Shown here: positions 24,926-42,683 of the stretch, piece after piece
Layout: every line of letters begins with the position of its first letter
Position numbering within the stretch: the first letter of the stretch is position 1
Virus record (IMG/VR): IMGVR_UViG_2529292882_000016
Source: a virus
Taxonomy: Duplodnaviria > Heunggongvirae > Uroviricota > Caudoviricetes
Direction: 5' to 3' (one strand)
Length of the DNA stretch: 45,980 bases
The notes under the pieces: model-generated
The model's input: the letters and a program-made list of their open reading frames with translations, nothing else
What the model was told of the DNA's origin: nothing
Database searches by the model: none
Position numbers and translations under genes: made by a program

Positions 24926-25309
24926 TCATCGTTTCAACTGAAAGTGAGGTCCGTCTTTCAGTGTTTTCCAGTCCCCGCCCCATTCGATGGCAGTTCCCAG
25001 CTCTGCGGCAGCCTGCTTAAATGCCTGTGCGATTTTCTCGTACAGAGGCCAGTCCCATGACACCTGGCTGCCAATGTAGGCCACAACATCCACCGCATCA
25101 CCGGTCAGGTGGCGGCTGTTCATGGTCTGGCTCTTACCTTCTGCAACCAACTGTTTCTGGCGATACTTACTGCGCAGACCTTCCGTAATACCGAAATCAA
25201 CCTCCGTCAGCTCCAGTGCACGGCGAACGACAGCAACCAGCTGTGGTTTGACGCCCTCCAGATTTTTTTCACTGCGACGGCTGAATCTGAATTTACCCGA
25301 CATATTCAC
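24926..25309 (-). CDS. Endolysin, peptidase M15-type (127 aa)
   Basis: SRHLTGDAVDV (H-x6-D) and C-terminal DGPHFQL motifs typical of zinc D-Ala/L-Ala-D-Glu peptidase endolysins; follows holin-like genes. Confidence 0.75.
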   Translation of the reverse strand: MNMSGKFRFSRRSEKNLEGVKPQLVAVVRRALELTEVDFGITEGLRSKYRQKQLVAEGKSQTMNSRHLTGDAVDVVAYIGSQVSWDWPLYEKIAQAFKQAAAELGTAIEWGGDWKTLKDGPHFQLKR

Positions 25310-25581
25310 CTCAACAATGGAAAGATTTTTGTGACGTTCCCGCGTGCGCGTATCACCAGCACGCAGAACAGCAGGTTAAAAAACACTTCCAGCCAGCCCG
25401 TTGCTAACGGGCGACCACACAGATAGCTGAGGGGCGCAAAGGCATACAGCAGCATCAGCAGCCAGGCCAGCCATGACATCAGCGGTTTATGTCTGGAATC
25501 ACGGCGACGATAAAAAAAGAGCGTCAGCACGATAACCGTGCATAACGCTACATTCAGCAATCCGGGAATGTTACTTAACAT
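25306..25581 (-). CDS. Membrane protein, lysis-associated (start probably at the ATG at 25581)
   Basis: Three hydrophobic segments; between holin-like gene and endolysin. Confidence 0.4.
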   Translation of the reverse strand: MLSNIPGLLNVALCTVIVLTLFFYRRRDSRHKPLMSWLAWLLMLLYAFAPLSYLCGRPLATGWLEVFFNLLFCVLVIRARGNVTKIFPLLR

Positions 25582-25963
25582 TGCCGCCTCCTCCACCCCG
25601 CAGACGGGAGAACAGGCCGGACACCAGCGATGCAATATCCTGCTGGTGGATGAACGAGAGAATCTTCACCGACACCACTGACACCAGTACTGCACACAAT
25701 GCGTCGACAGGTGCACCGTCAAACCCTGTATGCTTTACCAGCCAGGATGCCAGAACCTCTGCCCCCAGCACGCCGATAATGAACGACACCAGAAAATGCG
25801 CCGCCACACGCCAGGCTGAAAGCGCCTGCGGAATTGTTGCCACAAATAACGCCCCGGCGAACGCACCAAACACAATCCCGAAATCCGTTCCGGTAAACAG
25901 CCCGAATACCGTCGCCCCGCCGAGCGCCACAGCCGTGCCGGAACCGGATAAGGGTTCAGACAT
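25571..25963 (-). CDS. Holin-like membrane protein (~130 aa; start at ATG 25963 with AGGAG RBS)
   Basis: Gly/Ala-rich transmembrane helices; first gene of the lysis cassette. The longer ORF to 26188 has no ribosome-binding site. Confidence 0.5.
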   Translation of the reverse strand: MSEPLSGSGTAVALGGATVFGLFTGTDFGIVFGAFAGALFVATIPQALSAWRVAAHFLVSFIIGVLGAEVLASWLVKHTGFDGAPVDALCAVLVSVVSVKILSFIHQQDIASLVSGLFSRLRGGGGGNVK

Positions 25964-26050: not shown

Positions 26051-26127
26051 GGTGTTATCTGATGTGATGTGCGCCGGGCGTGGCGCGGATATGAAAAAGG
26101 CCCGCCGCAGCGAGCCCCAGAAACAAC

Positions 26128-26149
26128 AAACCCGCTCGGCGGCGGGTTT
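26128..26149 (-). terminator. Hairpin AAACCCGC-TCGGCG-GCGGGTTT with U-rich tail on the minus strand (tR'-like candidate)
   Basis: 8-bp GC-rich stem; on the minus strand it is followed by TTTGTTGTTTCT; lies upstream of the holin gene in late orientation. Confidence 0.35.
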
Positions 26150-26192
26150 AAGCTGTGTGGCGAAGTAACCACTCTTAACACGATACAATACT

Positions 26193-26221
26193 TTTTGCGT
26201 ACGCGTTAGTGTTTTAGTAAT
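26193..26221 (+). promoter_or_regulatory. Candidate sigma70 promoter for the cassette: -35 TTGCGT, 17-bp spacer, -10 TAATAT
   Basis: Hexamers read directly from the sequence about 40 bp upstream of the first cassette ATG. Confidence 0.3.
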
Positions 26222-26257
26222 ATCCTGAAGTACGTTTATCTATTGATATCTATAGAA

Positions 26258-27349
26258 ATGAAGAAAATCGAAAAACTGTTCACTGAAGTAATACGGAAGT
26301 TGCGCCATAAGAAATTTATGCGCTCGATAGCTAGTAAAAGAAGCACAACAGAAAGAAAACTAAAACGTAATGGAAGTTTAAAAAAAATCTCTCCAGAAAA
26401 AATACTTGCTCCAACCATACTTGATATTTACAAGGCGGAATATCATGAGAATGTGGTTAATTTTATAGAAAAAATAGAAAACAAAGCAAAAACAGGAAAT
26501 AAAAAGATATATATATGCTTCAGAAATACAATTCACATATCGGCTGCTGCTGGCTTATTTCTTCTTGCAAAACTAGAGACATTAAAAAGCAATCATAAGG
26601 GCTTAAAATATATCGTAGCCAAACCTCCAATTAAAACTTCATCAAAAGGAGAGCAGCACGTTGTTGATTCTGTTTTGAACAGAATCGGTATCTATGCAGC
26701 ATTAGGTGTTAAATCAAGAGAAATGAGAGAAACTCCGTCTGTAAAATGTTGGGAGGTAATTCGTGGCGAACTCGTAGATTCGGAAATTGCGGGGAACTTA
26801 TTAGAAACAATCACAGAAAGAATGGGTACCGATTATACAGATTTATATCGCCCCTTGATAGAAGCCATGTCTAATTCAGTAGAGCATGCATATCGAGACG
26901 ATTTATATGACTCAAATAAAAATAATAATAAAAATAAATGGTGGTGCTTTGCTGCAATTATGAACAACAAGTTAATATTACTAATTTGTGACCTCGGTGT
27001 CGGTATACCTAAAACGTTAAAACTCACTCAAGGTGAAAAGGTTCTTGCAAAACTAACCGAGTTCCTTGGTAAGCCATTAGTCCTTGATTCAGAACATATA
27101 AAAGCCTCATTGCAAGTTAAACGAACCCGAACAAAGCTTGGATACAGAGGGAAAGGAGGAACTGATTTACAATCTATCATAGAAAACTTTGAAAATGCAC
27201 AATTACGGATTATATCCAACAAAGGAAATTACAGATATACTCATCGTAAGAAAGCAAGACCAGAGTTAATGTGGGATGCCAAACATTCCATCAACGGTAC
27301 TATAGTTGAATGGAGCGTACCGCTACCAAATGAAGGAGACCCCCAATGA
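26258..27349 (+). CDS. GHKL-superfamily ATPase/kinase, RsbW/SpoIIAB-like C-terminal domain with ~190-aa N-terminal extension (363 aa from ATG 26258)
   Basis: N-box-like EAMSNSVEHAY, G1 box ICDLGVGIP (DxGxG), G2-like GYRGKGGTDL, with appropriate spacing; AT-rich; stop overlaps next gene's ATG (ATGA). Confidence 0.75.
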   Translation: MKKIEKLFTEVIRKLRHKKFMRSIASKRSTTERKLKRNGSLKKISPEKILAPTILDIYKAEYHENVVNFIEKIENKAKTGNKKIYICFRNTIHISAAAGLFLLAKLETLKSNHKGLKYIVAKPPIKTSSKGEQHVVDSVLNRIGIYAALGVKSREMRETPSVKCWEVIRGELVDSEIAGNLLETITERMGTDYTDLYRPLIEAMSNSVEHAYRDDLYDSNKNNNKNKWWCFAAIMNNKLILLICDLGVGIPKTLKLTQGEKVLAKLTEFLGKPLVLDSEHIKASLQVKRTRTKLGYRGKGGTDLQSIIENFENAQLRIISNKGNYRYTHRKKARPELMWDAKHSINGTIVEWSVPLPNEGDPQ

Positions 27350-27663
27350 AAACCTTATTTATCAAGGACTTTTCAAGATTCCCGGGACCTAGATACGAAA
27401 GGTTAGGTGAAAACAGTGGCGAAAAATTCCGCGATTTATTTTTGATACCAGCACTTAGCAAAGATCCAGACTTAGTCATTGACTTTGATGGTGTTTTTGG
27501 CTATGGCTCATCTTTCCTTGAGGAGGCCTTTGGAGGTTTGGTGCGTAAAGGGATAGAGCGCGAAAAATTGGAGAAGCTTAAGAAGAATCTCAAAAGTAAA
27601 GATCAATACATTATTGAGGAAGTAATTTCATATATAGATGATGCTCTGAGAGAACTAAAATAA
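27346..27663 (+). CDS. STAS-like protein, anti-sigma-factor-antagonist-like / DUF4325-like (105 aa)
   Basis: VIDFDGVFGYGSSFLEEAFGG resembles the SpoIIAA/RsbV loop (DLSGVSFMDSSGLG) including the Ser-Ser; translationally coupled on both sides. Confidence 0.7.
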   Translation: MKTLFIKDFSRFPGPRYERLGENSGEKFRDLFLIPALSKDPDLVIDFDGVFGYGSSFLEEAFGGLVRKGIEREKLEKLKKNLKSKDQYIIEEVISYIDDALRELK

Positions 27664-28124
27664 TGGACACTGACGTTACTCAGAATTTATGGACAATGCC
27701 TGCAACGATTATAGCGATTGCTGGCATTTTTTTAACAATATTAGGCTGGATAGTCACAGCAATATTTACTCGCATTAACAACGCGAAAAATTTAAAAAAA
27801 CTAGAAATAAATAGGCTTATTGATGAGTTATTTTATAAATTAGATTTCATTTATAGCGAAATGCTTGAATTGCTGCGAGACGATAAAAAAGACAAACAAG
27901 TCCTATATTACATTTTTACATCATCAGTAAGGCATGTTGAGTTTATTTGCGAGCGAATTGAGTTATTAGACAACAAGAAAAACAAAGACAATGGATTAAT
28001 ATCTGAATTAAGGCAAGCATGCACTAACGATGCGAAATATGAAAAAGAAAAAATAGGAACAACATTACATGAAATTCAAAGCGCTAATGAAAAACTCAAA
28101 AACAAATATCTAAAATCCTTTTAA
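27663..28124 (+). CDS. Small membrane protein with N-terminal transmembrane segment and helical cytoplasmic region (153 aa)
   Basis: Hydrophobic stretch MPATIIAIAGIFLTILGWIVTAIF then Lys/Glu-rich helices; start overlaps previous stop (TAATG). Confidence 0.65.
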   Translation: MDTDVTQNLWTMPATIIAIAGIFLTILGWIVTAIFTRINNAKNLKKLEINRLIDELFYKLDFIYSEMLELLRDDKKDKQVLYYIFTSSVRHVEFICERIELLDNKKNKDNGLISELRQACTNDAKYEKEKIGTTLHEIQSANEKLKNKYLKSF

Positions 28125-28130
28125 ATAAAA

Positions 28131-28165
28131 AAGGACCGGCGGCTTAGCCGGTTCCTTTTTATTTT
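28131..28165. terminator. Bidirectional rho-independent terminator between the cassette and Q
   Basis: AAAAAGGACCGGCGGCTTAGCCGGTTCCTTTTTATTTT: GC stem flanked by an A-run and a T-run. Confidence 0.7.
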
Positions 28166-28503
28166 ATTACACAAAGGCATCCATCAATAAACCCCATTGC
28201 CGTTTGCATCTCTTTCCGTATTGTTCCATCTGAACATTTCCGTTTTTTAGCAATAGCGCGTAATGAGATACCAATAACAAAGTGAGCAATGATCAACTCA
28301 TACTCTTCGGGTTTATACTTTCGCAACCGAGCCACACAACCGTCTATCATGATACCTTCGTCATCATCACACTGGAGACGTGACTTTTTACCGTGTGGTA
28401 AAAGCCCCTTGAAGCCTGCTGCTATCGGCTGCCAGTCCACACCACTGTTATCTGCTGCAGCCCAGGCCCCCCAACGATCTAAAACTTCGTACATATCACG
28501 CAT
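28159..28503 (-). CDS. Late-gene antiterminator Q, QuuD-like (114 aa from ATG 28503)
   Basis: MRDMYEVLDRWGAWAAADNSGVDWQPIAAGFKGL... and the Cys-rich QCDDDEGIMIDGC closely resemble QuuD-type Q proteins as I recall them; start overlaps upstream stop. Confidence 0.8.
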   Translation of the reverse strand: MRDMYEVLDRWGAWAAADNSGVDWQPIAAGFKGLLPHGKKSRLQCDDDEGIMIDGCVARLRKYKPEEYELIIAHFVIGISLRAIAKKRKCSDGTIRKEMQTAMGFIDGCLCVIK

Positions 28504-28760
28504 CAGCGCAGTACCTCCTGCACCAGTTTTTCGAACTTTCCAACTTTGGTTTCCAGCTCTGCCACACAATCCACCAGCTCATCCACTGCTTTTTGTGCGC
28601 GGTGTTTCGCCTGCATCAGTTCCCTGAGCGCTGGCACCATATCCTTACGAATGGCATCTTTTGTTACGCCTGTCTTTTCCAGTTGTTCCGCCTGTCGTAA
28701 CATTTCCTGTGCCTGTTTACGTAATTGTTCAGGCGTAAAAGTCATGGTCTGGTTGTTCAA
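28503..28760 (-). CDS. Hypothetical protein (85 aa)
   Basis: Helical, between DnaB-like gene and Q; overlapping start/stop junctions. Confidence 0.45.
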   Translation of the reverse strand: MNNQTMTFTPEQLRKQAQEMLRQAEQLEKTGVTKDAIRKDMVPALRELMQAKHRAQKAVDELVDCVAELETKVGKFEKLVQEVLR

Positions 28761-34759: not shown

Positions 34760-34840
34760 CACACTGGATACTCTGTTATCCAAGAATGTTAAACGCGAGA
34801 ACCCAAAGTATCAAGAAATTCTGTTACTTTAGTATCAGCA
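34760..34840. promoter_or_regulatory. Divergent promoter/operator region (OR-like) with repeated GTATC/GATAC half-sites
   Basis: GGATACTCTGTTATCC (34766..34781), AGTATCA at 34807 and 34831, TCTGTTAC at 34822; between the divergently transcribed cro-like and cI-like genes. Confidence 0.4.
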
Positions 34841-34860
34841 GCCATGAAAGGAGAAGAAAA

Positions 34861-35517
34861 ATGAAATCTTTAGGTGAACGCCTCATCAACGCACGACAAA
34901 AAGCTGGGTTAACGCAAGATGCGTTGGCTAAAAAAGCAGGGGTCACCAGAGTTGCAATCAGTAAAGCCGAGCAAGGCCTTACAAAAAGTTTCAACGGTGA
35001 CACCCTTTTTAAAGTCGCAGCTGCACTGCAGTGTTCACCGCAGTGGCTTCAGAACGGAGATGAAAAAGATAAGCATTGGGAAAATAATGTTAAGAGCTGC
35101 CCACAGAGAGACACAGCACACTCTTACCCTGTAATTAACTGGGTTCAGGCAGGATTATTCGCAACTGCTGGTGATGACTACAACATGTATGATCAGGATA
35201 ATTGGAGGCATTCTGTAAAATACGCTGGTGAGAGGGGGTTCTGGCTGGAAGTGCACGGAGACTCAATGACTTCGCCCGTAGGAATAACATTTCCTGAAGG
35301 AATGTCGATCCTTGTCAACCCAGATAAAGAAGTTTTTTCAGGGTGTTACGTCATCGCCAGAAAAAAATCTACCAATGAAGCAACATTCAAAAAATATATT
35401 TCTGAAATGGGAAAGGCGTTTCTAAAGCCCCTTAATCCACAATATCCAATCATAGAAATGGACAATGATTGCGAAATAGTAGGTGTTGTGGTTGATGCCA
35501 GGTGGGATATTTTCTGA
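34861..35517 (+). CDS. cI-type repressor, HTH plus LexA-like S24 peptidase domain (218 aa from ATG 34861)
   Basis: N-terminal HTH (LTQDALAKKAGVTRVAISKAEQG) and C-terminal S24-like region (WLEVHGDSMTSPVGITFPEGM...VIARKK...); AAGGAG RBS. Confidence 0.85.
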   Translation: MKSLGERLINARQKAGLTQDALAKKAGVTRVAISKAEQGLTKSFNGDTLFKVAAALQCSPQWLQNGDEKDKHWENNVKSCPQRDTAHSYPVINWVQAGLFATAGDDYNMYDQDNWRHSVKYAGERGFWLEVHGDSMTSPVGITFPEGMSILVNPDKEVFSGCYVIARKKSTNEATFKKYISEMGKAFLKPLNPQYPIIEMDNDCEIVGVVVDARWDIF

Positions 35518-35539
35518 CCAGACACAAAACACAAAAAGA

Positions 35540-35620
35540 AACCAAAGTATCAAAAATCACTTGCCATACCTTGATACCTTAGTTACCATGAAGCAAGGTT
35601 CGTAACTGAGGTATCATCTC
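35540..35620. promoter_or_regulatory. Second operator-like cluster (OL-like) with the same GTATC/GATAC half-sites
   Basis: AGTATCA (35546), TTGATACC (35571), GTAACTGAGGTATCA (35602..35616) immediately upstream of the early-left operon. Confidence 0.35.
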
Positions 35621-36124
35621 ATGATCAATAAAGCTACAACTCTTGACTGTCTCGAAGAACTGAAAAACCTCGGCAGCCTCATTACACTAATAGCAAAAGC
35701 AACACCAGATGCTACGCTCTCTAGCGATATAGAGTCATGCGCAGGACTGGCATGGGATATGACAAATAGCATATCCAGAAAGCTATCGTCAGCAATGCTT
35801 TTACAGAACAAAAATTCTGCAATCAACAACCGTCTTCGCACCCAACGCGAAGACTGCGGCTTAACAACAGCCGAACTCGCCAGACTGCTCGACCTCGATG
35901 AAGAAATCATCATCCAGTGGGAAAGCGGAGAGCACGAACCAACCATCAGCATGCTTATCCCTCTGGCTAATGTTCTTGGCTGTGATCCGATGTGGCTGTT
36001 AACTGGCGAGGTTACTCCTCCGGAGCAACCAAAAAGTGAGGAGCAGCAACACCATGACGCATCTCAACAAGTTTGCTCCTTATCTCGCGAAGCTCTTCTA
36101 CGGAAGAACCAATACCAATGGTGA
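35621..36124 (+). CDS. XRE-family HTH protein (167 aa)
   Basis: HTH segment LTTAELARLLDLDEEIIIQWESGEHEPTISMLIPLANVLGCDPMWLLTG; GAGGT RBS; first gene after the OL-like region. Confidence 0.6.
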   Translation: MINKATTLDCLEELKNLGSLITLIAKATPDATLSSDIESCAGLAWDMTNSISRKLSSAMLLQNKNSAINNRLRTQREDCGLTTAELARLLDLDEEIIIQWESGEHEPTISMLIPLANVLGCDPMWLLTGEVTPPEQPKSEEQQHHDASQQVCSLSREALLRKNQYQW

Positions 36125-36252
36125 CATAATCGCCGCTTCGCCCCTCAAGGTACATGCGAACATTTTTATCAATCATTGCGGAAACAGTCTCAATATGAAA
36201 ACACTTCTGAGACTCGCTATATAGCAGAACATATAAGTCAGCTGAGGAAGCC

Positions 36253-36618
36253 ATGAAAAAGTTCGAAAACATAACTGTTCTCCATGTTGATGACTTTGAT
36301 TATACAAACCCGGACCTTCTCCCGGAGGTTGTAAAGGCAATAGATGTTGCCGATATAGTGATTAGAGGAAAGAGAATTGTCAAAAACAGGCTCGCATGCA
36401 CTTCAGGAGCAATGACAGAAACAACCTCACAACAAGATGATTATGAAGGCATTTGTCTGGAGCCTGACTCATTTGCGGTAAATGTTTATCATTTATTGCA
36501 TGCAACACAGGTATTACATATGTCAAGTAATCACGAAACAAAAACACTTGGCAGCGAAATTCTGAATTTTGCATGTGAATATGCAAAAGCTGCTGCCGAA
36601 AAAGAATTAGCGCAATAA
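36253..36618 (+). CDS. Hypothetical protein (121 aa), AT-rich
   Basis: ORF only; GAGGAAG upstream of the ATG. Confidence 0.45.
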   Translation: MKKFENITVLHVDDFDYTNPDLLPEVVKAIDVADIVIRGKRIVKNRLACTSGAMTETTSQQDDYEGICLEPDSFAVNVYHLLHATQVLHMSSNHETKTLGSEILNFACEYAKAAAEKELAQ

Positions 36619-36814
36619 CAATAAATATTCCCTAAATGTTTATTACGGTTTTATCGCCGGGGATTGTTGCAACCTTTATTCGCAGGAGATTATGTTATGA
36701 CTTTCCTGAAACATAAGGCATCGTATAAAACTACCCGCCTCATTGCACAACATGGAGATTCTTATCTTCATATAGCCAGCCTGTATTTGCGCAAAGCATA
36801 TGGGAGATAAGTCA

Positions 36815-37003
36815 ATGGAAGAAAAACAACAAAACATAACACATAAAAAAGTAAGAGTGTTGCTAACCATTGAAAATGGTGAAGTAATTTACTCAAAACA
36901 TCTGTTGGATAATGAATTCGTTGGCTGCATGGATACATTTCTGTGGATGGCAAAAAGAGCGGGTTACACGATTATTCCACCAGCAAAGGAGCAAACATTA
37001 TGA
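36815..37003 (+). CDS. Hypothetical small protein (62 aa)
   Basis: GGGAGA RBS before ATG 36815; stop overlaps next ATG (ATGA). Confidence 0.4.
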   Translation: MEEKQQNITHKKVRVLLTIENGEVIYSKHLLDNEFVGCMDTFLWMAKRAGYTIIPPAKEQTL

Positions 37004-37581
37004 GTCATTCAGAGTTCCGACCAGAAGTTACGCCACATGGCATAAAAATTGGCAATACAACCATTGATTATGTTGAGGCCGTACAGCGGCTTAATGATGG
37101 TGAATACGATTATCCAAACTCACACGGTTTAAGAATCATGCAATGTATTGCTGAAGCCGATGATGCAGGGTTGCTGGGACGATTTTCAGTCGATATGAAG
37201 GTTGCTCAGTGGCGATGGCTGTATGTGACTACGTTTATAAATGAAGAGAAAGACAAGAACGGTACCGTTGATATCCCTAACGATAACGGAACTACAGATC
37301 ACGCGGTTATTTACAAGGGTAAACATGGTTGCCTGAGTATCTACCCCGGACCACTTCGTATTGCCCTGCAAAACCACGTCGAATGGGGATTTATTGAAAA
37401 ATATGGCGAAGCTGAAGGCATGGGGCGAGTTCTGTTTCTCTATCAAAAAATGCTCATCGCAGATCCTGATAATGGTTTCATTATTTCTGCTATGGGGCGC
37501 GAAGGGCTTGAACTCCTTCTGGATGAAATGATGAACGACCTGAATACTCATGGTATGCCAGAAGCGCCAGTGACACATTAA
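37000..37581 (+). CDS. Hypothetical protein (193 aa)
   Basis: AAGGAG RBS 7 nt upstream of ATG 37000; translationally coupled to the upstream small ORF. Confidence 0.5.
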   Translation: MSHSEFRPEVTPHGIKIGNTTIDYVEAVQRLNDGEYDYPNSHGLRIMQCIAEADDAGLLGRFSVDMKVAQWRWLYVTTFINEEKDKNGTVDIPNDNGTTDHAVIYKGKHGCLSIYPGPLRIALQNHVEWGFIEKYGEAEGMGRVLFLYQKMLIADPDNGFIISAMGREGLELLLDEMMNDLNTHGMPEAPVTH

Positions 37582-37757
37582 ATATTAAGAAGAATATAAT
37601 TCTTCCATCTTTTACTAACCGTTTATATGAAAAGCAACCGTGAATTAAACAGAGTAAAACTGATTTTAATCCTTACCACAGTACTGACACTAACTGAAAT
37701 CATTATTCTCTTTATTGCGCTGTCAGTCGGTTAAAAATATCTGGATACCACAGACCA

Positions 37758-37946
37758 ATGAGACTGTATTTCACAATAGTAATTTTACTGGCAATTATCG
37801 CATGCATTTACGGATTACTCGTTCCGTTCCTTATATCTATGAAGGATACGATAGCAGTTATTTCTGGCTTTGCACTGGCGTTTCTGACCCCGCCCTGCAT
37901 TTATGCCATTTACAAGGGTCTTTCTTTCACTAAGGATAAAAGATGA
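37758..37946 (+). CDS. Small membrane protein (62 aa, two predicted transmembrane segments), coupled to the SPFH gene
   Basis: Hydrophobic sequence MRLYFTIVILLAIIACIYGLLVPFLIS...; stop overlaps the SPFH gene ATG (ATGA). Confidence 0.4.
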   Translation: MRLYFTIVILLAIIACIYGLLVPFLISMKDTIAVISGFALAFLTPPCIYAIYKGLSFTKDKR

Positions 37947-38770
37947 AAAAAATTATTTTTGCTTTAGCCATTGTTCTGCCGACTATTGGCCTTGTCGGTT
38001 GCGATCGCGTTGAACCAGGTAATGTTGGCATCAAGGTAAATAAACTGGGCGACGACAAAGGCGTCGGTGAGGTGGTCGGTGTTGGTCGCTACTGGACTGG
38101 CTGGAATACTGAAGTTTATATCTTCCCCACCTTCAAACAAATGAAGACCTACGATGAACCGTTCAGTTTCCAGATGAGTGACGGTACAACCATCGGCTAT
38201 CACATCGGTGTGGCCTACAAAGTTGATCCATCCAAAGTTACCACGGTGTTTCAGACCTACCGCAAAGGCGTGGATGACATTACCGACACTGACCTGCGCC
38301 AGAAGATCGCCGACGCACTCAACCGACTGGCCAGCAAAATGACCACCGACAAATTTATCGATGGCGGGAAGTCTGAACTACTGGATGCAGCTCTTAAAGA
38401 CATTCAGGAGGAAATGACACCCATCGGTATTCAGGTAATGAGCCTCTCATATGTAGGTAAGCCGGAGTACCCGTCAACCGTTATCGACAGCATTAATGCC
38501 AAAGTCACGGCGAACCAGAAAACACTGCAGCGCGAGCAGGAAGTAAAACAGCGCGAAGCGGAAGCCAATATGTTGCGCGCAGAAGCTGCCGGACAGGCTG
38601 ATGCGATTCGCACAAAAGCCCAGGCCGAAGCTGATGCTATTCGTTTACGCGGTGAAGCTCTGCGCCAGAACCCCGGCGTTATGGAGCTGGAAGCCATCAA
38701 TAAATGGAACGGCACACTGCCGCAATACATGACCAGCGGTGCTAATACACCATTTATCCAGGTTAAATAA
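37943..38770 (+). CDS. SPFH/band-7 (prohibitin/stomatin-like) domain lipoprotein (275 aa)
   Basis: Signal peptide with lipobox LVGC; central SPFH-like region and Ala/Glu-rich coiled-coil tail (EAEANMLRAEAAGQADAIRTKAQAEADAIRLRGEALRQNPGVMELEAINKWNG). Confidence 0.75.
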   Translation: MKKIIFALAIVLPTIGLVGCDRVEPGNVGIKVNKLGDDKGVGEVVGVGRYWTGWNTEVYIFPTFKQMKTYDEPFSFQMSDGTTIGYHIGVAYKVDPSKVTTVFQTYRKGVDDITDTDLRQKIADALNRLASKMTTDKFIDGGKSELLDAALKDIQEEMTPIGIQVMSLSYVGKPEYPSTVIDSINAKVTANQKTLQREQEVKQREAEANMLRAEAAGQADAIRTKAQAEADAIRLRGEALRQNPGVMELEAINKWNGTLPQYMTSGANTPFIQVK

Positions 38771-39602: not shown

Positions 39603-39812
39603 GTGGGGCTGGATTGCGTACCTATATCAACCTACTGCCGCAACGCAGGAGAAACGGTTGATGCCGTTAACAAACGGATACAAAGAGGAATATGGAAAGA
39701 AGGGGTACATGTATTAAAAGTCGACGGAGTTAAAGAACGTTGGGTCGACTTAATGGAGATTACAAAATGGGCAAGAAAGAACAAGGATCACTATCTCTCC
39801 CTAGAGGAGTAA
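39603..39812 (+). CDS. xis: Excisionase-like protein (69 aa; GTG start assumed)
   Basis: Small basic protein immediately upstream of and overlapping int, as in lambda xis-int; winged-helix-like composition. Confidence 0.5.
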   Translation: MGLDCVPISTYCRNAGETVDAVNKRIQRGIWKEGVHVLKVDGVKERWVDLMEITKWARKNKDHYLSLEE

Positions 39813-40939
39813 CTATTCGCCAGCATAAAACTGGTAGCACTCTGGTTATCACTTTTACATATAAAGGGGTTCTGTGTCGGGAGCCCCTCTCCAGAATGGA
39901 AGTAAACGCGCGCGGTGTGAAGTACGCTGAGCGTCTGCTGGGAGAAATAAAAAATCAGATTATCGATGGTACCTTCGAATATGCAAAATACTTCCCCAAC
40001 TCCCAAAAGCTGGAGTTGTTCGGGGGAGTGAAAAAAAACAAAAATATAAAATCTTACCTGGATGAATACCTGATTATCTGCCAGAACCGTAACCTGTCAC
40101 CATCGACAATTAGAGGTTATGAAAAATGCCTGTCGGCGCTGTCAGCATTGCATAAATTTCATGTATCAGAACTGACACCTGCAGTACTAAAAAACTGGAT
40201 CGCCAGCAGAAAAACAAAACTGAAAACTATCCGCAATAATCTTTCATTCTTGCGCAGCGCCATAGATGAAGCGGTGACCGATGGTTTGTTAACAATAAAT
40301 CCTGTCACGCTAGTCAGCGCCAGCCGGTATCACGTATTGGACAACACACCAGGCAGTGATGATTACGAGGTCGATCCTTTTACACCAGCGGAGACGGCAG
40401 CAATCTATGACGCCTGTCATTACCCGGAATGGCGAAATCTGTTTCGCTTTGCCTTTAATACAGGACTGCGCAGCTCAGAATTGTGCGCGTTGCGCTGGAC
40501 GGATATAGACTTTATCGGCAACACCGCGCATGTTCAGACTGCAAGCGTAGTCGGGGTAATCAAAAGCACCAAAACAAAAGCCGGCACCCGCAAAGTGCAA
40601 CTGAACAGCGAAGCGCTGGCGGCTCTTCAGGCACAAAAGCCCTACACGGCGCTAAAGAGCGACTTCATATTCAGCGATCCGAAAACTCGCGCTCCTTGGG
40701 CAAACGCAGATGCGATCCGAAAAAAAGCCTGGGTACCAACCCTTAAAAAAGCTGGTGTACGCTATCGCAATCCGTACCAGACACGCCACACGTTCGCCAC
40801 TCGGCACATTAGCCAGGGCGTTAACCTGTTCTGGCTTGCTGGTCAGATGGGGCATAAAGGACCGGAAATGCTGTTCAGACATTACGGCTCTTACCTTGCA
40901 GAATACGATGGAAAAACGGCGATTTCTGCAACCCCGTAA
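39767..40939 (+). CDS. int: Tyrosine integrase, lambda Int-like (390 aa from ATG 39767)
   Basis: C-terminal catalytic region with RHTFATRHISQG...RHYGSYL (R/H/R/Y-type motifs); transcribed toward the att repeat at 41072. Confidence 0.85.
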   Translation: MGKKEQGSLSLPRGVTIRQHKTGSTLVITFTYKGVLCREPLSRMEVNARGVKYAERLLGEIKNQIIDGTFEYAKYFPNSQKLELFGGVKKNKNIKSYLDEYLIICQNRNLSPSTIRGYEKCLSALSALHKFHVSELTPAVLKNWIASRKTKLKTIRNNLSFLRSAIDEAVTDGLLTINPVTLVSASRYHVLDNTPGSDDYEVDPFTPAETAAIYDACHYPEWRNLFRFAFNTGLRSSELCALRWTDIDFIGNTAHVQTASVVGVIKSTKTKAGTRKVQLNSEALAALQAQKPYTALKSDFIFSDPKTRAPWANADAIRKKAWVPTLKKAGVRYRNPYQTRHTFATRHISQGVNLFWLAGQMGHKGPEMLFRHYGSYLAEYDGKTAISATP

Positions 40940-41071
40940 CGGCAAAATATTTCAAAATGTTGTACAGAATCAGGACGTTACCGGGACAACAATATGTACG
41001 TAAAATGCACATAATTCATTGTTTGAAAAAATAAATCGTTCATATTCAATAAATTGGATTAATCACGATCA

Positions 41072-41098
41072 CGGGTTCAACTCCCGCCAGCTCCACCA
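41072..41098. repeat. Second copy of the 27-bp att direct repeat (displaced ssrA 3' end)
   Basis: Identical to 1034..1060; the downstream flank (AAATTCTCCATCGGTGATTACC...) carries a terminator hairpin and is then followed by a P4-type integrase, as at the chromosomal ssrA locus. Confidence 0.85.
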
Positions 41099-41145
41099 AA
41101 ATTCTCCATCGGTGATTACCAGAGTCATCCGATGAAGTCCTAAGA

Positions 41146-41178
41146 GCCCGCACGGCGCAAGCCCTGCGGGCTTTTTTG
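41146..41178 (+). terminator. Rho-independent terminator (probable original ssrA terminator)
   Basis: GCCCGCA...TGCGGGC stem followed by TTTTTTGTG. Confidence 0.6.
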
Positions 41179-41303
41179 TGCCCTCAATTTGTCCCGCGAA
41201 GTCCGAAGAAAACTAATTAAATCCGATCCTTTTAGGCACCTTGTTAGGCACCTCATAAAGCTTTATTGTTTTTTGAGGTGCCTAAAACTATGGAAACCCG
41301 GCA

Positions 41304-42545
41304 ATGGCAAGACAAACCAAACCTCTATCCGTTAAAGAAATAGAATCAGCCAAACCCAAGGAGGCGGACTACGTTCTCTATGATGGCGATGGCCTTGAGC
41401 TACTCATTAAATCCAGCGGGAGTAAAATCTGGCAGTTTCGCTACATTCGCCCTGTCACCAAGAAACGAGCAAAGAAGAGCATAGGCTCCTACCCGTCAGT
41501 TACCCTTGCCGATGCCAGAAACTACCGTGCAGAGTCCCGCTCACTACTGGCTAAACAGATCGATCCGCAGGAACATCAGCAAGAACAATTGCGCAGTTCG
41601 CTGGAAGCCAAAACCAACACTTTCCAACTCGTAGCTGAACGTTGGTGGAATGTGAAGAAAGCCAGTGTGACAGAGGACTATGCGGAAGATATCTGGCGCT
41701 CTCTTGAAAGAGACGTCTTTCCTGCGATTGGCGACGTTAGCGTTACAGATATTAAAGCTCATACACTGGTTCAGGCCGTACAACCGGTTCAGGCCAGAGG
41801 AGCACTGGAAACTGTTCGTCGCCTGTGCCAACGTATTAATGAGGTCATGATCTATGCCCAGAACACAGGGCTGATTGATGCTGTTCCCAGCGTTAATATC
41901 GGTAAAGCCTTCGAGAAGCCTCAGAAAAAGAACATGCCCAGCATTCGACCGGATCAGCTACCTCAGTTAATGCAGACGATGCGAACAGCCAGCATTAGCC
42001 TTTCCACACGCTGCCTGTTCATGTGGCAACTTCTTACTATTACCCGCCCTGCCGAAGCGGCTGAAGCTCTCTGGGAAGAGGTAGACATAGAAGCGCGAGA
42101 GTGGAAGATTCCTGCAGCACGCATGAAAATGAACCGCGACCATACTGTTCCATTGTCAGATGAAGCAATTGCGATACTAGAGATGATGAAGCCGTTAAGT
42201 GGAAATCGAGAATTTATCTTTCCCAGCCGCATCAAGCCAAACCAGCCGATGAACAGTCAGACCGTAAACGCATCGCTAAAACGCGCAGGTTTTGGTGGGG
42301 TGCTCGTTTCACACGGCCTGCGATCTATCGCCAGTACAGCCCTTAATGAGCAGGGATTTCCACCTGATGTTATTGAGGCTGCACTTGCTCATGTGGATAA
42401 GAATGAGGTTCGTCGTGCGTATAACCGTAGTGATTATCTTGAGCAGCGACGGCCTATGATGCAGTGGTGGGCTGATTTTGTGATGGCTGCAGATCACGGT
42501 AGTATGATTGAAGGAGGGATAAAGGCAATGCGGTTAGTTGGATGA
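41304..42545 (+). CDS. intA: P4-type tyrosine integrase, CP4-57 IntA-like (413 aa)
   Basis: N-terminus MARQTKPLSVKEIESAKPKEADYVLYDGDGLELLIKSSGSKIWQFRY and C-terminus ...HVDKNEVRRAYNRSDYLEQRRPMMQWWADF typical of P4-family integrases; about 200 bp after the ssrA 3' end. Confidence 0.85.
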   Translation: MARQTKPLSVKEIESAKPKEADYVLYDGDGLELLIKSSGSKIWQFRYIRPVTKKRAKKSIGSYPSVTLADARNYRAESRSLLAKQIDPQEHQQEQLRSSLEAKTNTFQLVAERWWNVKKASVTEDYAEDIWRSLERDVFPAIGDVSVTDIKAHTLVQAVQPVQARGALETVRRLCQRINEVMIYAQNTGLIDAVPSVNIGKAFEKPQKKNMPSIRPDQLPQLMQTMRTASISLSTRCLFMWQLLTITRPAEAAEALWEEVDIEAREWKIPAARMKMNRDHTVPLSDEAIAILEMMKPLSGNREFIFPSRIKPNQPMNSQTVNASLKRAGFGGVLVSHGLRSIASTALNEQGFPPDVIEAALAHVDKNEVRRAYNRSDYLEQRRPMMQWWADFVMAADHGSMIEGGIKAMRLVG

Positions 42546-42625
42546 CATGTCGTAGCTAAAACCCGTTCTGTTTTTGGGTAGATTAACCTGAAGGTCTGCA
42601 ATTTTAAATGACGCTGAAAGAAGTT

Positions 42626-42651
42626 AAACCCTGCTCTTAAGCAGGGTTTTT
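42626..42651. terminator. Bidirectional terminator hairpin AAACCCTGC-TCTTAA-GCAGGGTTT
   Basis: 9-bp stem with T-run on plus and a T-rich tract on minus; lies between the convergent intA-like gene and the 767-aa gene. Confidence 0.6.
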
Positions 42652-42683
42652 ATGATTTATTCTAATTTTGGTTTTGAATCTTT

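What the first reader, a model, noticed from the sequence alone, without database searches (positions are those of the whole stretch)
27346..27663. STAS-like protein with a SpoIIAA/RsbV-type phospho-loop (DFDGVFGYGSSFL)
The segment VIDFDGVFGYGSSFLEEAFGG aligns by eye with the conserved anti-sigma-antagonist loop DLSGVSFMDSSGLG, including the Ser-Ser pair where phosphorylation occurs in SpoIIAA. Together with the upstream GHKL protein this suggests a phospho-switch. Gene order is kinase then STAS, the reverse of the classical rsbV-rsbW order.
Basis: partly seen in the sequence, partly recalled or inferred. Interest (0 to 1): 0.6.

Follow-up and report, generated by a model that had tools for sequence, protein, structure and literature searches.

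The report
Prophage kinase–STAS–membrane protein switch cassette
The small STAS-like gene is real and is the middle gene of a three-gene prophage cassette (serine-kinase-like protein, STAS-like substrate, small membrane protein) that resembles the recently described VapKSC anti-phage phospho-switch but has a membrane protein in place of the nuclease toxin.

Summary
The ORF at 27346-27663 exists and encodes a 105-aa Pfam DUF4325 (STAS-like) protein (E=2e-14). The GYGSSFLEEAFGG loop is invariant in its 120 closest homologues, and Ser55 starts predicted helix α2.

Both proteins are homologous to VapK and VapS of the VapKSC system characterised in 2026. VapS is itself a DUF4325 protein, and Ser55 aligns with VapS Ser48, a site that is functionally required there.

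It encodes a single-pass membrane protein found directly downstream in 85 of 89 related loci, where VapKSC has a PIN toxin.

The low-GC cassette sits between Q and the holin in a lambdoid prophage. In several other species' loci it sits directly after the cI-like repressor, the position rexAB holds in lambda. PADLOC 2023 has no model for it.

Best reading: a kinase-gated phospho-switch controlling a membrane effector for phage exclusion. This is a new variant of a known kind. Phosphorylation and defence are inferred, not shown.

The parts
26258..27349 (+). Gene A (K): 363-aa kinase-like protein, or 368 aa if the TTG at 26243 is used. It has a basic N-terminal tail, a STAS domain and an anti-sigma-type GHKL domain.
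26258..26410 (+). Basic N-terminal tail of gene A, about 52 aa.
   Evidence: Median net charge is +14 and 32% of residues are K or R across 56 homologues. Predicted helical. Absent from VapK; CapK has an HTH domain at this position.
26411..26722 (+). Internal STAS-like domain of gene A (residues about 57-160 in 368-aa numbering), with the motif CFRNT..I[ST]AAAGL.
26735..27328 (+). GHKL (Bergerat-fold) kinase domain of gene A. N-box EAMSNSVEHAY at 26861-26893, G1 box DLGVGIP at 26990-27010, G2 box RGKGG at 27146-27160.
   Evidence: E207, N211, H215, D250, G252, R302, G303, G305, G352 and T353 are invariant in 56 homologues. The G2 lid is the low-confidence loop 302-305. Weak sequence hits to RsbW in NCBIfam (E=0.023) and PDB 6m36 (E=0.015).
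27346..27663 (+). Gene B (S): 105-aa DUF4325 STAS-like protein. This is the finding.
27481..27537 (+). Loop and helix α2 start, DFDGVFGYGSSFLEEAFGG. The candidate phospho-acceptor is Ser55 (27508-27510), with Ser56 at 27511-27513.
   Evidence: Invariant in the 120 closest homologues. S or T at position 55 in 129 of 157 unbiased domains. Helix α2 begins at residue 55. Ser55 aligns to VapS Ser48.
27663..28124 (+). Gene C: 153-aa single-pass membrane protein. It has an N-terminal transmembrane helix with a GW motif (about nt 27696-27764) and a helical cytoplasmic domain carrying an R-x-x-x-T-x-x-x-F-[DE]-like motif (T121).
   Evidence: The start overlaps the stop of gene B (TAATG). A homologue lies directly downstream of the STAS gene in 85 of 89 loci and almost nowhere else among 6581 ORFs. 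G28 and T121 are at least 90% conserved, and W29 about 81%. No Pfam, PADLOC or meaningful PDB match. All database homologues are annotated 'hypothetical'. Matches phrog_34309.
28133..28154 (.). Bidirectional intrinsic-terminator-like hairpin that closes the cassette. It lies 9 nt after the gene C stop and just after the Q stop on the other strand.
   Evidence: 8-pair stem followed by a T-run on the + strand, and the mirror site on the - strand.
28159..28569 (-). Context: phage antiterminator Q, forming the right border of the cassette slot.
   Evidence: PF06530 E=2.6e-47. Annotated as Q family in E. coli PSUO2. Window 26113-28505 is 95% identical to that prophage while the rest differs.
25306..25963 (-). 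Context: the two holin genes of the lysis cassette, forming the left border of the slot.
   Evidence: Phage_holin_8 E=3e-22 and Phage_holin_3_7 E=1e-21. Terminator-like hairpins on the - strand lie at 26097-26150. GC falls from about 0.55 to 0.31-0.40 across 26200-28200.

Best explanation
The STAS-like gene is the middle gene of a horizontally acquired, three-gene prophage cargo operon, K-S-M.

- **K** has a basic tail, a STAS domain and a SpoIIAB/RsbW-type GHKL serine kinase domain.
- **S** is the 105-aa DUF4325 STAS-like protein.
- **M** is a small single-pass membrane protein.

By homology with VapKSC, the proposed mechanism has four steps:
1. In the resting lysogen, unphosphorylated S holds the cytoplasmic helical domain of M inactive.
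2. An infection cue activates K. The cue may be a nucleic acid bound by K's basic tail or by the STAS/GHKL groove.
3. K phosphorylates S on Ser55, at the N-terminus of helix α2.
4. Phospho-S lets go, and M damages or blocks the membrane. The result is abortive infection or exclusion of a superinfecting phage.

**Shown by computation:** domain identities, homology to VapK/VapS, equivalence of Ser55 to VapS Ser48, strict three-gene synteny, and mobile-element or prophage location.

**Inferred:** kinase activity on S, the S-M interaction, toxicity of M, the trigger, and the anti-phage phenotype.
For: **Domain and homology evidence.**
- S is PF14213, the same Pfam family as the experimentally characterised VapS. 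Ser55 aligns with VapS Ser48, whose S48A and S48E mutants abolish defence or toxin binding.
- The catalytic GHKL residues are invariant.

**Synteny and linkage.**
- Gene order is K-S-third gene with overlapping stops and starts, the same order as vapKSC.
- K is adjacent in 86 of 89 loci and M in 85 of 89.
- One natural K-S fusion exists (L059, 474 aa). phrog_5816 carries DUF4325 at the C-terminus of a 441-position profile.

**Modularity.** S-like domains are also fused to NUDIX (above the Pfam cutoff). Two further fusions, to an HD-type and an N-deoxyribosyltransferase-like domain, are weak and fall below the Pfam cutoffs. This fits a regulatory module placed on different effectors.

**Location.**
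- The island is low in GC.
- It occupies the Q-holin cargo slot here and in 6 of 5426 complete E. coli genomes.
- In the Proteus, Vibrio, Shewanella and Pseudomonas loci examined, and in Marinobacter phage AS1, it lies next to or immediately downstream of the cI-like/S24 repressor.
- Neighbours in other species include PD-Lambda-5, Thoeris ThsA, HEC-01, PDC-S02 and RM genes.
Against: - There is no experimental data for this family.
- Phosphorylation of S, S-M binding and M toxicity are all inferred.
- hhalign of the S profile against single-sequence VapS is weak (E=0.08), so the residue equivalence rests on a modest alignment plus shared Pfam membership.
- Ser55 is not universal: 28 of 157 unbiased domains have A, P, C or another residue there. 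F57, L58, E60, F62 and G64 are more conserved than the serines, so the loop may primarily be a binding surface.
- The VapK ssDNA-stacking Phe54 aligns to a variable position in K, so the trigger cannot be transferred from VapK.
- M has only one transmembrane helix and no recognisable pore or enzyme domain.
- No PADLOC model matches any of the three proteins.
- The defence-neighbour tally has no background control.
- Most non-enterobacterial loci are not next to a repressor (12-13 of 71).
Confidence: 0.45

Rival explanations
1. The kinase-STAS phospho-switch is the same, but the membrane protein is the sensor or anchor rather than the effector. M would tether or activate K at the inner membrane, for example on phage DNA entry or envelope perturbation. 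Phospho-S or free S would then act on an unlinked host or phage target. This would be Sie-like exclusion rather than membrane killing.
For: M has a single transmembrane helix and a helical cytoplasmic domain with no toxin signature. K's very basic tail could bind acidic lipid as easily as nucleic acid. M carries a nearly invariant Thr (T121) in a basic context that could itself be a kinase target. Some prophage genes in repressor-linked, lysogen-expressed positions act at the membrane, such as lambda RexB (own knowledge).
Against: In the only characterised relative, the third gene is the effector and S is its inhibitor. Fusions of S-like domains to enzymatic effector-type domains fit the picture of S regulating an effector. 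No separate effector gene is conserved next to the cassette.
Confidence: 0.2
2. The cassette serves the prophage's own life cycle rather than defence against other phages. The K-S pair would sense DNA damage, and M would modulate holin or membrane function, affecting induction, lysis timing or lysogeny maintenance.
For: The cassette sits between Q and the holins in this window. It sits next to the SOS-cleavable S24 repressor in many other prophages. CapK and probably VapK respond to DNA-damage ssDNA.
Against: In the window it is on the strand opposite the late operon, with its own terminator. About 80% of species-level loci are not beside a repressor. Several of those lie next to RM, PD-Lambda-5 or Thoeris genes. 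It is found in only 6 of 5426 complete E. coli genomes and 1 of 50,697 isolated phages, which is typical of accessory cargo rather than core phage function.
Confidence: 0.12
3. There is no phosphotransfer. The GHKL domain would work as an ATPase or conformational switch, and the DUF4325 loop GYGSSFLEEAFGG would be a ligand- or protein-binding surface rather than a phospho-site.
Against: K's closest structural relatives are specifically the serine-kinase branch of the GHKL superfamily, scoring above histidine kinases and topoisomerases. S-to-T exchange at position 55 (25 of 157) is what a phospho-acceptor tolerates. The homologous VapS and CapS serines are functionally or biochemically validated.
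Confidence: 0.13
4. A classical partner-switching module of the SpoIIAA/SpoIIAB or RsbV/RsbW type that controls a sigma factor, or a CapKS-type transcriptional regulator of an adjacent operon.
For: The structural resemblance of K to SpoIIAB/RsbW and of S to RsbV.
Against: There is no sigma factor or PP2C gene in or next to the cassette. S has no DNA-binding wHTH domain, unlike CapS. The cassette is terminated right after M, and no conserved operon follows it. No classical STAS Pfam model hits S.
Confidence: 0.04

Closest known systems
VapKSC kinase-antitoxin-toxin anti-phage system (Chambers et al., EMBO J 2026, PMC13373217)
   Same: Three-gene operon in the order kinase, STAS, third gene. The kinase is a STAS plus GHKL protein homologous over both domains (hhalign E=8.5e-6). 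The STAS partner is in the same Pfam family, PF14213, is of similar size (105 vs 116 aa), has a C-terminal helix, and has a conserved Ser/Thr at the start of helix α2 (Ser55 aligns to Ser48). No phosphatase gene is present.
   Different: The third gene is a single-pass membrane protein of an unannotated family instead of a VapC PIN nuclease. The kinase carries an extra, very basic 52-aa N-terminal tail, and the VapK Phe54 position is not conserved. Identity to VapK is about 22%. It is prophage-borne, in the Q-holin slot here and the cI-adjacent slot elsewhere. The paper does not mention a membrane variant or DUF4325.
CapK-CapS DNA-damage-responsive regulators of immune operons (same paper)
   Same: A GHKL serine kinase with an internal STAS domain, followed by a STAS protein that is phosphorylated on a conserved serine of helix α2. 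Gene order is kinase then STAS.
   Different: CapS has a wHTH DNA-binding domain and represses a downstream operon. S here has none, and no conserved operon follows. CapK has an N-terminal HTH; K here has a basic tail.
SpoIIAA/SpoIIAB and RsbV/RsbW partner-switching modules
Lambda RexAB and other lysogen-expressed prophage exclusion systems
   Same: In several of the other species' loci examined the cassette lies immediately downstream of the cI-like repressor on the same strand, the position rexAB holds in lambda. It pairs cytoplasmic components with a membrane protein.
   Different: There is no sequence relationship and no PADLOC hit. RexB is polytopic, whereas M has one transmembrane helix. 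The resemblance is positional and conceptual only.

Membership tests
Pfam PF14213 DUF4325 (STAS-like domain) | Scores above the curated gathering threshold of the family HMM | tested here: met
   53.4 bits against a cutoff of 23, E=2.1e-14, residues 24-79. RefSeq names the E. coli orthologue 'STAS-like domain-containing protein'.
Classical anti-sigma-factor antagonists (SpoIIAA/RsbV; Pfam STAS/STAS_2) | Match to a classical STAS profile | tested here: not met
   No STAS or STAS_2 hit at E<=1. hhalign against SpoIIAA gave probability 0.2%. The family profile gives only a marginal match to the STAS protein 3t6o (E=0.019).
Classical anti-sigma-factor antagonists (SpoIIAA/RsbV; Pfam STAS/STAS_2) | STAS α/β fold | tested here: inconclusive
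Classical anti-sigma-factor antagonists (SpoIIAA/RsbV; Pfam STAS/STAS_2) | Conserved phosphorylatable Ser/Thr at the N-terminus of helix α2 | tested here: met
   Helix α2 begins at Ser55. S55 and S56 are invariant in close homologues and are S or T in 82-83% of distant ones. Actual phosphorylation is not testable with these tools.
Classical anti-sigma-factor antagonists (SpoIIAA/RsbV; Pfam STAS/STAS_2) | Operates with a cognate sigma factor and a PP2C phosphatase | tested here: not met
   Neither is encoded in or beside the cassette in the window or in the related loci examined.
VapKSC | VapK-like kinase: STAS domain plus anti-sigma-type GHKL domain, encoded immediately upstream | tested here: met
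VapKSC | VapS-like STAS protein with a conserved Ser/Thr and a C-terminal helix | tested here: met
   VapS is itself PF14213, E=2.7e-17. Ser55 aligns to Ser48. A C-terminal helix spans residues 87-104.
VapKSC | Third gene encodes a VapC-like PIN-domain toxin | tested here: not met
   The third gene encodes a 153-aa single-pass membrane protein with no PIN or any other Pfam hit. That membrane family is the conserved partner in 85 of 89 loci.
VapKSC | Kinase-dependent phosphorylation of S releases the effector and protects against phage | not testable with these tools
   Requires biochemistry and plaque assays. Known only for VapKSC.
CapK-CapS regulators | CapS carries a C-terminal wHTH and represses an adjacent downstream operon | tested here: not met
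   S is a single 105-aa domain with no HTH. The cassette ends at a terminator, and the genes that follow vary between loci.
Catalogued anti-phage systems (PADLOC-DB v2.0.0, including RexAB, PD-T4/PD-Lambda and candidate PDC systems) | Any of the three proteins matches a catalogued defence-protein HMM | tested here: not met
   Zero hits at E<=1 for all three proteins.

The most novel reading that the evidence does not exclude
K-S-M is an uncatalogued, widespread anti-phage abortive-infection or exclusion system. It occurs in at least 244 species, mostly Proteobacteria, often on prophages. An anti-sigma-type serine kinase phosphorylates a DUF4325 STAS protein to release a new family of single-pass membrane effectors. 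Its trigger may differ from ssDNA, given the family-specific basic tail and the non-conserved VapK Phe54 position. The conserved Ser/Thr in the kinase's own STAS domain would add an autoinhibitory pseudo-substrate layer.
Probability: 0.4. Interest if true: 0.7.

Novelty: new variant of a known kind. Interest (0 to 1): 0.55.

Why it matters
Phosphorylation-gated STAS switches were textbook regulators of sigma factors. Only in 2026 were they shown to control bacterial immune operons (CapKS) and a toxin (VapKSC).

This cassette suggests the same kinase-STAS sensing unit has been coupled to a membrane protein. It appears to be carried by temperate phages in the two classic cargo slots: next to cI, and between Q and the lysis genes, which is my recollection of where Shiga toxin genes sit. 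If so, DUF4325 is broadly a phospho-regulated adaptor of conflict systems.

If confirmed, three things follow:
- A new defence family would be added to the catalogues.
- Three 'hypothetical protein' families would gain a function, one of which has about 1,500 clusters at 50% identity.
- It would offer a tractable E. coli system for asking how a soluble phospho-switch gates a membrane effector.

It also has a practical use. Lysogens carrying the cassette may resist therapeutic or typing phages.

Tried and rejected
**Searches that found nothing for the three proteins.**
- PADLOC returned no hits.
- NCBIfam returned only a sub-threshold RsbW hit for the kinase.
- Pfam returned nothing for the kinase or the membrane protein.
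- All homologues of gene C in the 5.8-billion-protein search are unannotated. Profile search against PDB sequences gave only coiled-coil noise, and the Pfam scan of 55 members gave nothing.

**Comparisons with classical STAS proteins that failed.**
- hhalign of the STAS-like profile against SpoIIAA found no meaningful alignment.
- BLASTP of the protein, and of the 3t6o fragment, against SpoIIAA gave nothing or a wrong register.
- The ungapped motif score against SpoIIAA and RsbV is at chance level.
- Foldseek of the STAS-like model against the PDB had no hit with E<1. That library predates release of the VapS and CapS structures.

**Literature.** Searches for DUF4325, 'STAS-like' with phage, and partner-switching with phage defence found no paper describing this cassette.

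**Other negative or limited results.**
- The idea that longer proteins containing an S domain are S-M or K-S fusions was not borne out among the top 150 representatives. They are tandem S repeats or fusions to other domains.
- The consensus scan found no sigma-70 promoter upstream of gene A. By eye, TTGCGT-17-TAATAT at about 26194-26223 is a possible weak one.
- I could not locate PR'/qut, so I cannot say whether late transcription crosses the cassette antisense.
Full report
**1. Observation**

The ORF at 27346-27663 (+) is real. The loop DFDGVFGYGSSFLEEAFGG is residues 46-64 (nt 27481-27537), and Ser55 is nt 27508-27510.

- The protein matches Pfam PF14213, 'STAS-like domain of unknown function DUF4325', at E=2.1e-14 and 53.4 bits against a cutoff of 23.
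- RefSeq already labels the 96.7%-identical E. coli copy 'STAS-like domain-containing protein'.
- Among the 120 closest homologues (48-95% identical, many gammaproteobacterial genera), G52, G54, S55, S56, F57, E60, F62, G63, G64 and R67 are invariant. So are residues of an N-terminal P-G-P-R...G..S-G-E.F-R segment (P13, G21, G25, R29).
- A motif-unbiased HMMER search of 1.84 billion representatives finds 2376 relatives at E<=1e-3 and 1520 at E<=1e-10.
- In the best 157 domains from that search, position 55 is S in 104, T in 25, A in 8, P in 7 and C in 6. In 145 of 157 there is at least one S/T at positions 55/56.

**2. Is it a STAS fold with a SpoIIAA-like phospho-site?**

The AlphaFold2 model is very confident (pLDDT 95.8). 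Its order of elements is β(3-5), α1(25-39), β(44-46), α2(55-67), α(72-80), short β, α(87-104). Ser55 is therefore the first residue of helix α2, the topological position of SpoIIAA Ser58.

- Foldseek against the PDB finds nothing significant.
- A profile of the family matches the STAS protein 3t6o at E=0.019, aligning DLDGVfGYGSSFLEE with DLEGVEFFGSSFIEL.
It is statistically indistinguishable from chance, since 520 of 2000 shuffles reach its score. Against RsbV that register is not even the top-scoring offset. Against 3t6o, 0 of 2000 shuffles reach the score.
- hhalign against SpoIIAA fails. I verified that my SpoIIAA sequence is PDB 1AUZ.

The protein is therefore a divergent STAS-like protein of the DUF4325 branch, not a member of the SpoIIAA/RsbV family.

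**3. The upstream protein**

The ORF is 26243-27349, and homologues and RefSeq start at the ATG at 26258, giving 363 aa. It has no Pfam hit, but alignment of 56 homologues shows invariant GHKL motifs:

- N-box E207, N211 and H215 (EAMSNSVEHAY)
- G1 box D250-x-G252-x-G-I-P
- G2 box R302-G-K-G-G
- G352-T353

The architecture is a basic tail (about 52 aa, median net charge +14), then a STAS domain, then a SpoIIAB/RsbW-type kinase.

**4. A third gene, and strict synteny**

A 153-aa ORF (27663-28124) starts on the last base of the STAS gene's stop codon (TAATG). The STAS gene in turn overlaps the kinase stop (ATGA). A bidirectional terminator hairpin follows at 28133-28154. The protein has one N-terminal transmembrane helix and a helical cytoplasmic domain.

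I collected 89 loci: 80 species-level genomes holding the motif out of 244 that matched, plus 9 others.

- A kinase homologue lies immediately upstream in 86 of 89 loci. One case is a natural kinase-STAS fusion of 474 aa.
- A homologue of the membrane protein lies immediately downstream in 85 of 89 loci. The iterated profile hits only two other ORFs among 6581.
- In that family G28 and T121 are at least 90% conserved, and W29 about 81%. T121 sits in an R-x-x-x-T-x-x-x-F-[DE]-like motif.
- It has no Pfam, PADLOC or meaningful PDB match, and every database homologue is 'hypothetical'.

**5. Genomic setting**

The window is a lambdoid prophage on the minus strand, carrying tail, head, terminase and HNH genes. 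The region around the cassette reads as follows:

| Coordinates | Strand | Feature |
|---|---|---|
| 24926-25309 | - | M15 endolysin |
| 25306-25963 | - | two holins |
| 28159-28569 | - | Q antiterminator (PF06530, E=3e-47) |
| from 28757 | - | DnaB, DnaC-like and replication initiator genes |
| 34786-35517 | + | cI-like repressor |
| 39740-40939 and 41304-42545 | + | two integrases |

- The cassette lies on the opposite strand between the holin and Q. Its GC content is 0.31-0.40, against about 0.52 in the flanks.
- Only 6 of 5426 complete E. coli genomes carry it, in the same slot.
- The segment 26113-28505 (cassette plus Q) is 95% identical to the PSUO2 prophage, whereas the rest of the two prophages is unrelated. 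The module is evidently exchanged between phage backbones.
- In the Proteus, Vibrio, Shewanella and Pseudomonas loci examined, the same three genes sit immediately downstream of the cI-like HTH+S24 repressor on the same strand. In Marinobacter phage AS1 they follow an unannotated gene in the Cro/CI immunity region. AS1 is the only hit among 50,697 isolated phages.
- This is the lysogen-expressed position that rexAB holds in lambda (own knowledge).
- Across 71 species-level loci, 12-13 have such a repressor upstream and the others lie in varied chromosomal contexts.
- Among 135 large ORFs lying within about 1.1 kb of the cassette in the related loci, hits include PD-Lambda-5 A/B, type I and type II RM components, Thoeris ThsA, HEC-01A, PDC-S02 and PbeA. 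This tally is qualitative and has no background control.

**6. Link to known systems**

A full-text search found Chambers et al., EMBO J 2026 (PMC13373217).

- *CapKS.* CapK (HTH-STAS-GHKL) phosphorylates CapS (STAS-wHTH) on a conserved helix-α2 serine when activated by ssDNA.
- *VapKSC.* VapK (STAS-GHKL), VapS (STAS plus a C-terminal helix) and VapC (PIN toxin) form a related operon. VapS is the antitoxin, S48E releases VapC, S48A abolishes protection, and the operon gives about 2 logs of protection against phage Bas42.

I recovered the VapS and VapK sequences from the paper's supplementary AlphaFold3 file.

- VapS is itself a PF14213 DUF4325 protein (E=2.7e-17).
- hhalign aligns DGVFGYGSSFL with SNVKMFASPFF, so Ser55 corresponds to VapS Ser48. 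This alignment is weak, E=0.08, because the template is a single sequence.
- The kinase profile aligns with VapK across both domains (83% probability, E=8.5e-6, 268 columns).
- The paper does not mention DUF4325 or any transmembrane partner.
- PADLOC-DB 2.0.0 has no model for any of the three proteins.

**7. Mechanism (inferred)**

By homology, K phosphorylates S on Ser55. By analogy with VapS-VapC, unphosphorylated S would hold the cytoplasmic domain of M inactive, and phosphorylation would release it. That would lead to membrane damage and abortive infection or exclusion.

Several observations fit a modular, effector-regulating S domain:

- the K-S fusion;
- phrog_5816, which carries DUF4325 at the C-terminus of a 441-position profile;
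- tandem S repeats;
- a fusion of an S-like domain to NUDIX (29.9 bits, above the cutoff), and weaker, sub-threshold fusions to YfbR-like HD and N-deoxyribosyltransferase-like domains.

The trigger cannot be transferred from VapK. VapK Phe54, the ssDNA-stacking residue, aligns to a variable position (residue 98) in K. K also has a family-specific basic tail. Rival readings are scored separately: M as sensor or anchor, a role in the prophage's own life cycle, and a switch without phosphotransfer.

**8. Verdict**

- The phospho-switch interpretation is supported in substance, by structure and by homology to an experimentally validated system.
- It is mis-filed as SpoIIAA/RsbV-type, and it is incomplete: it misses the third gene, the kinase's own STAS domain and the prophage-cargo context.
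- The cassette is best described as a new variant of the CapK/VapK-type kinase-STAS module, with a novel membrane partner.
- Nothing about phosphorylation, toxicity or defence has been shown for this family.

Noticed in passing
window 26411-26722 (gene A residues about 57-160; residue 100 = nt 26540-26542): The kinase's own STAS domain has Ser/Thr in 55 of 56 homologues at the N-cap of its helix α2 (motif I-[ST]-A-A-A-G-L). This is the same topological spot as the phospho-serine of SpoIIAA. VapK has Arg there. It may be an autophosphorylation or pseudo-substrate site, or merely a helix cap.
   Followed up: partly
window 26258-26410: The first ~52 residues of the kinase are extremely basic (median net charge +14, about 32% K+R). 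The composition is conserved but the sequence is not. VapK lacks this tail and CapK has an HTH there. This suggests nucleic-acid or acidic-lipid binding.
   Followed up: partly
window 27663-28124 (T121 = nt 28023-28025): The membrane protein family has a nearly invariant Thr in an R-x-x-x-T-x-x-x-F-[DE]-like motif, and a well-conserved G-W in the transmembrane helix. The Thr could be a second kinase target.
   Followed up: no
proteins P0233, P0237, P0238, P0380, P0370, P0304 (one search hits): Domains like the S protein (DUF4325) also occur as two or three tandem copies in one protein. They also occur fused to NUDIX (above the Pfam cutoff) and, weakly, to YfbR-like HD and nucleoside 2-deoxyribosyltransferase-like domains. 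The genomic contexts are unknown.
   Followed up: partly
window 26113-28505 vs L001 5963-8355: The cassette and the adjacent Q antiterminator gene are 95% identical to a prophage of E. coli PSUO2, while the surrounding phage genes are unrelated (only the portal region reaches 80%). Q and the cassette appear to move together as one recombination module. From my own knowledge, the Q-holin slot is where Stx phages carry stx; the 74 nt at 26150-26223 match Stx2a phages and SfII.
   Followed up: partly
window 34786-38770: In this prophage, the slot downstream of the cI-like repressor (34786-35517) is occupied by other cargo instead of the cassette. That slot holds the cassette in several of the other species' loci examined. 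The cargo is an HTH protein (35621-36124), two unknown ORFs (36253-36618 and 36943-37581) and an SPFH/Band-7 protein (37943-38770). None has a specific PADLOC hit.
   Followed up: partly
window 39740-44987: Two tyrosine integrases lie in tandem (39740-40939 and 41304-42545). They are followed by a 767-aa minus-strand ORF (42684-44987) with no Pfam or PADLOC match. The right end matches E. coli chromosomes at 99.8-99.9%, next to IS3 and an integrase. This may be a second integrated element abutting the prophage.
   Followed up: no
window 26097-26150 (- strand) and 28135-28152 (- strand): Terminator-like hairpins on the late-gene strand flank the cassette on both sides. I could not locate PR'/qut, so it is unresolved whether Q-antiterminated late transcription runs antisense through the cassette. 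If it does, it could silence the cassette during the prophage's own lytic growth.
   Followed up: no
L008 1300-2420 (Vibrio contig SRR11357202_573): In one Vibrio contig the kinase gene is broken into several short ORFs, while the STAS and membrane genes remain intact. This could be a decayed copy or an assembly error.
   Followed up: no
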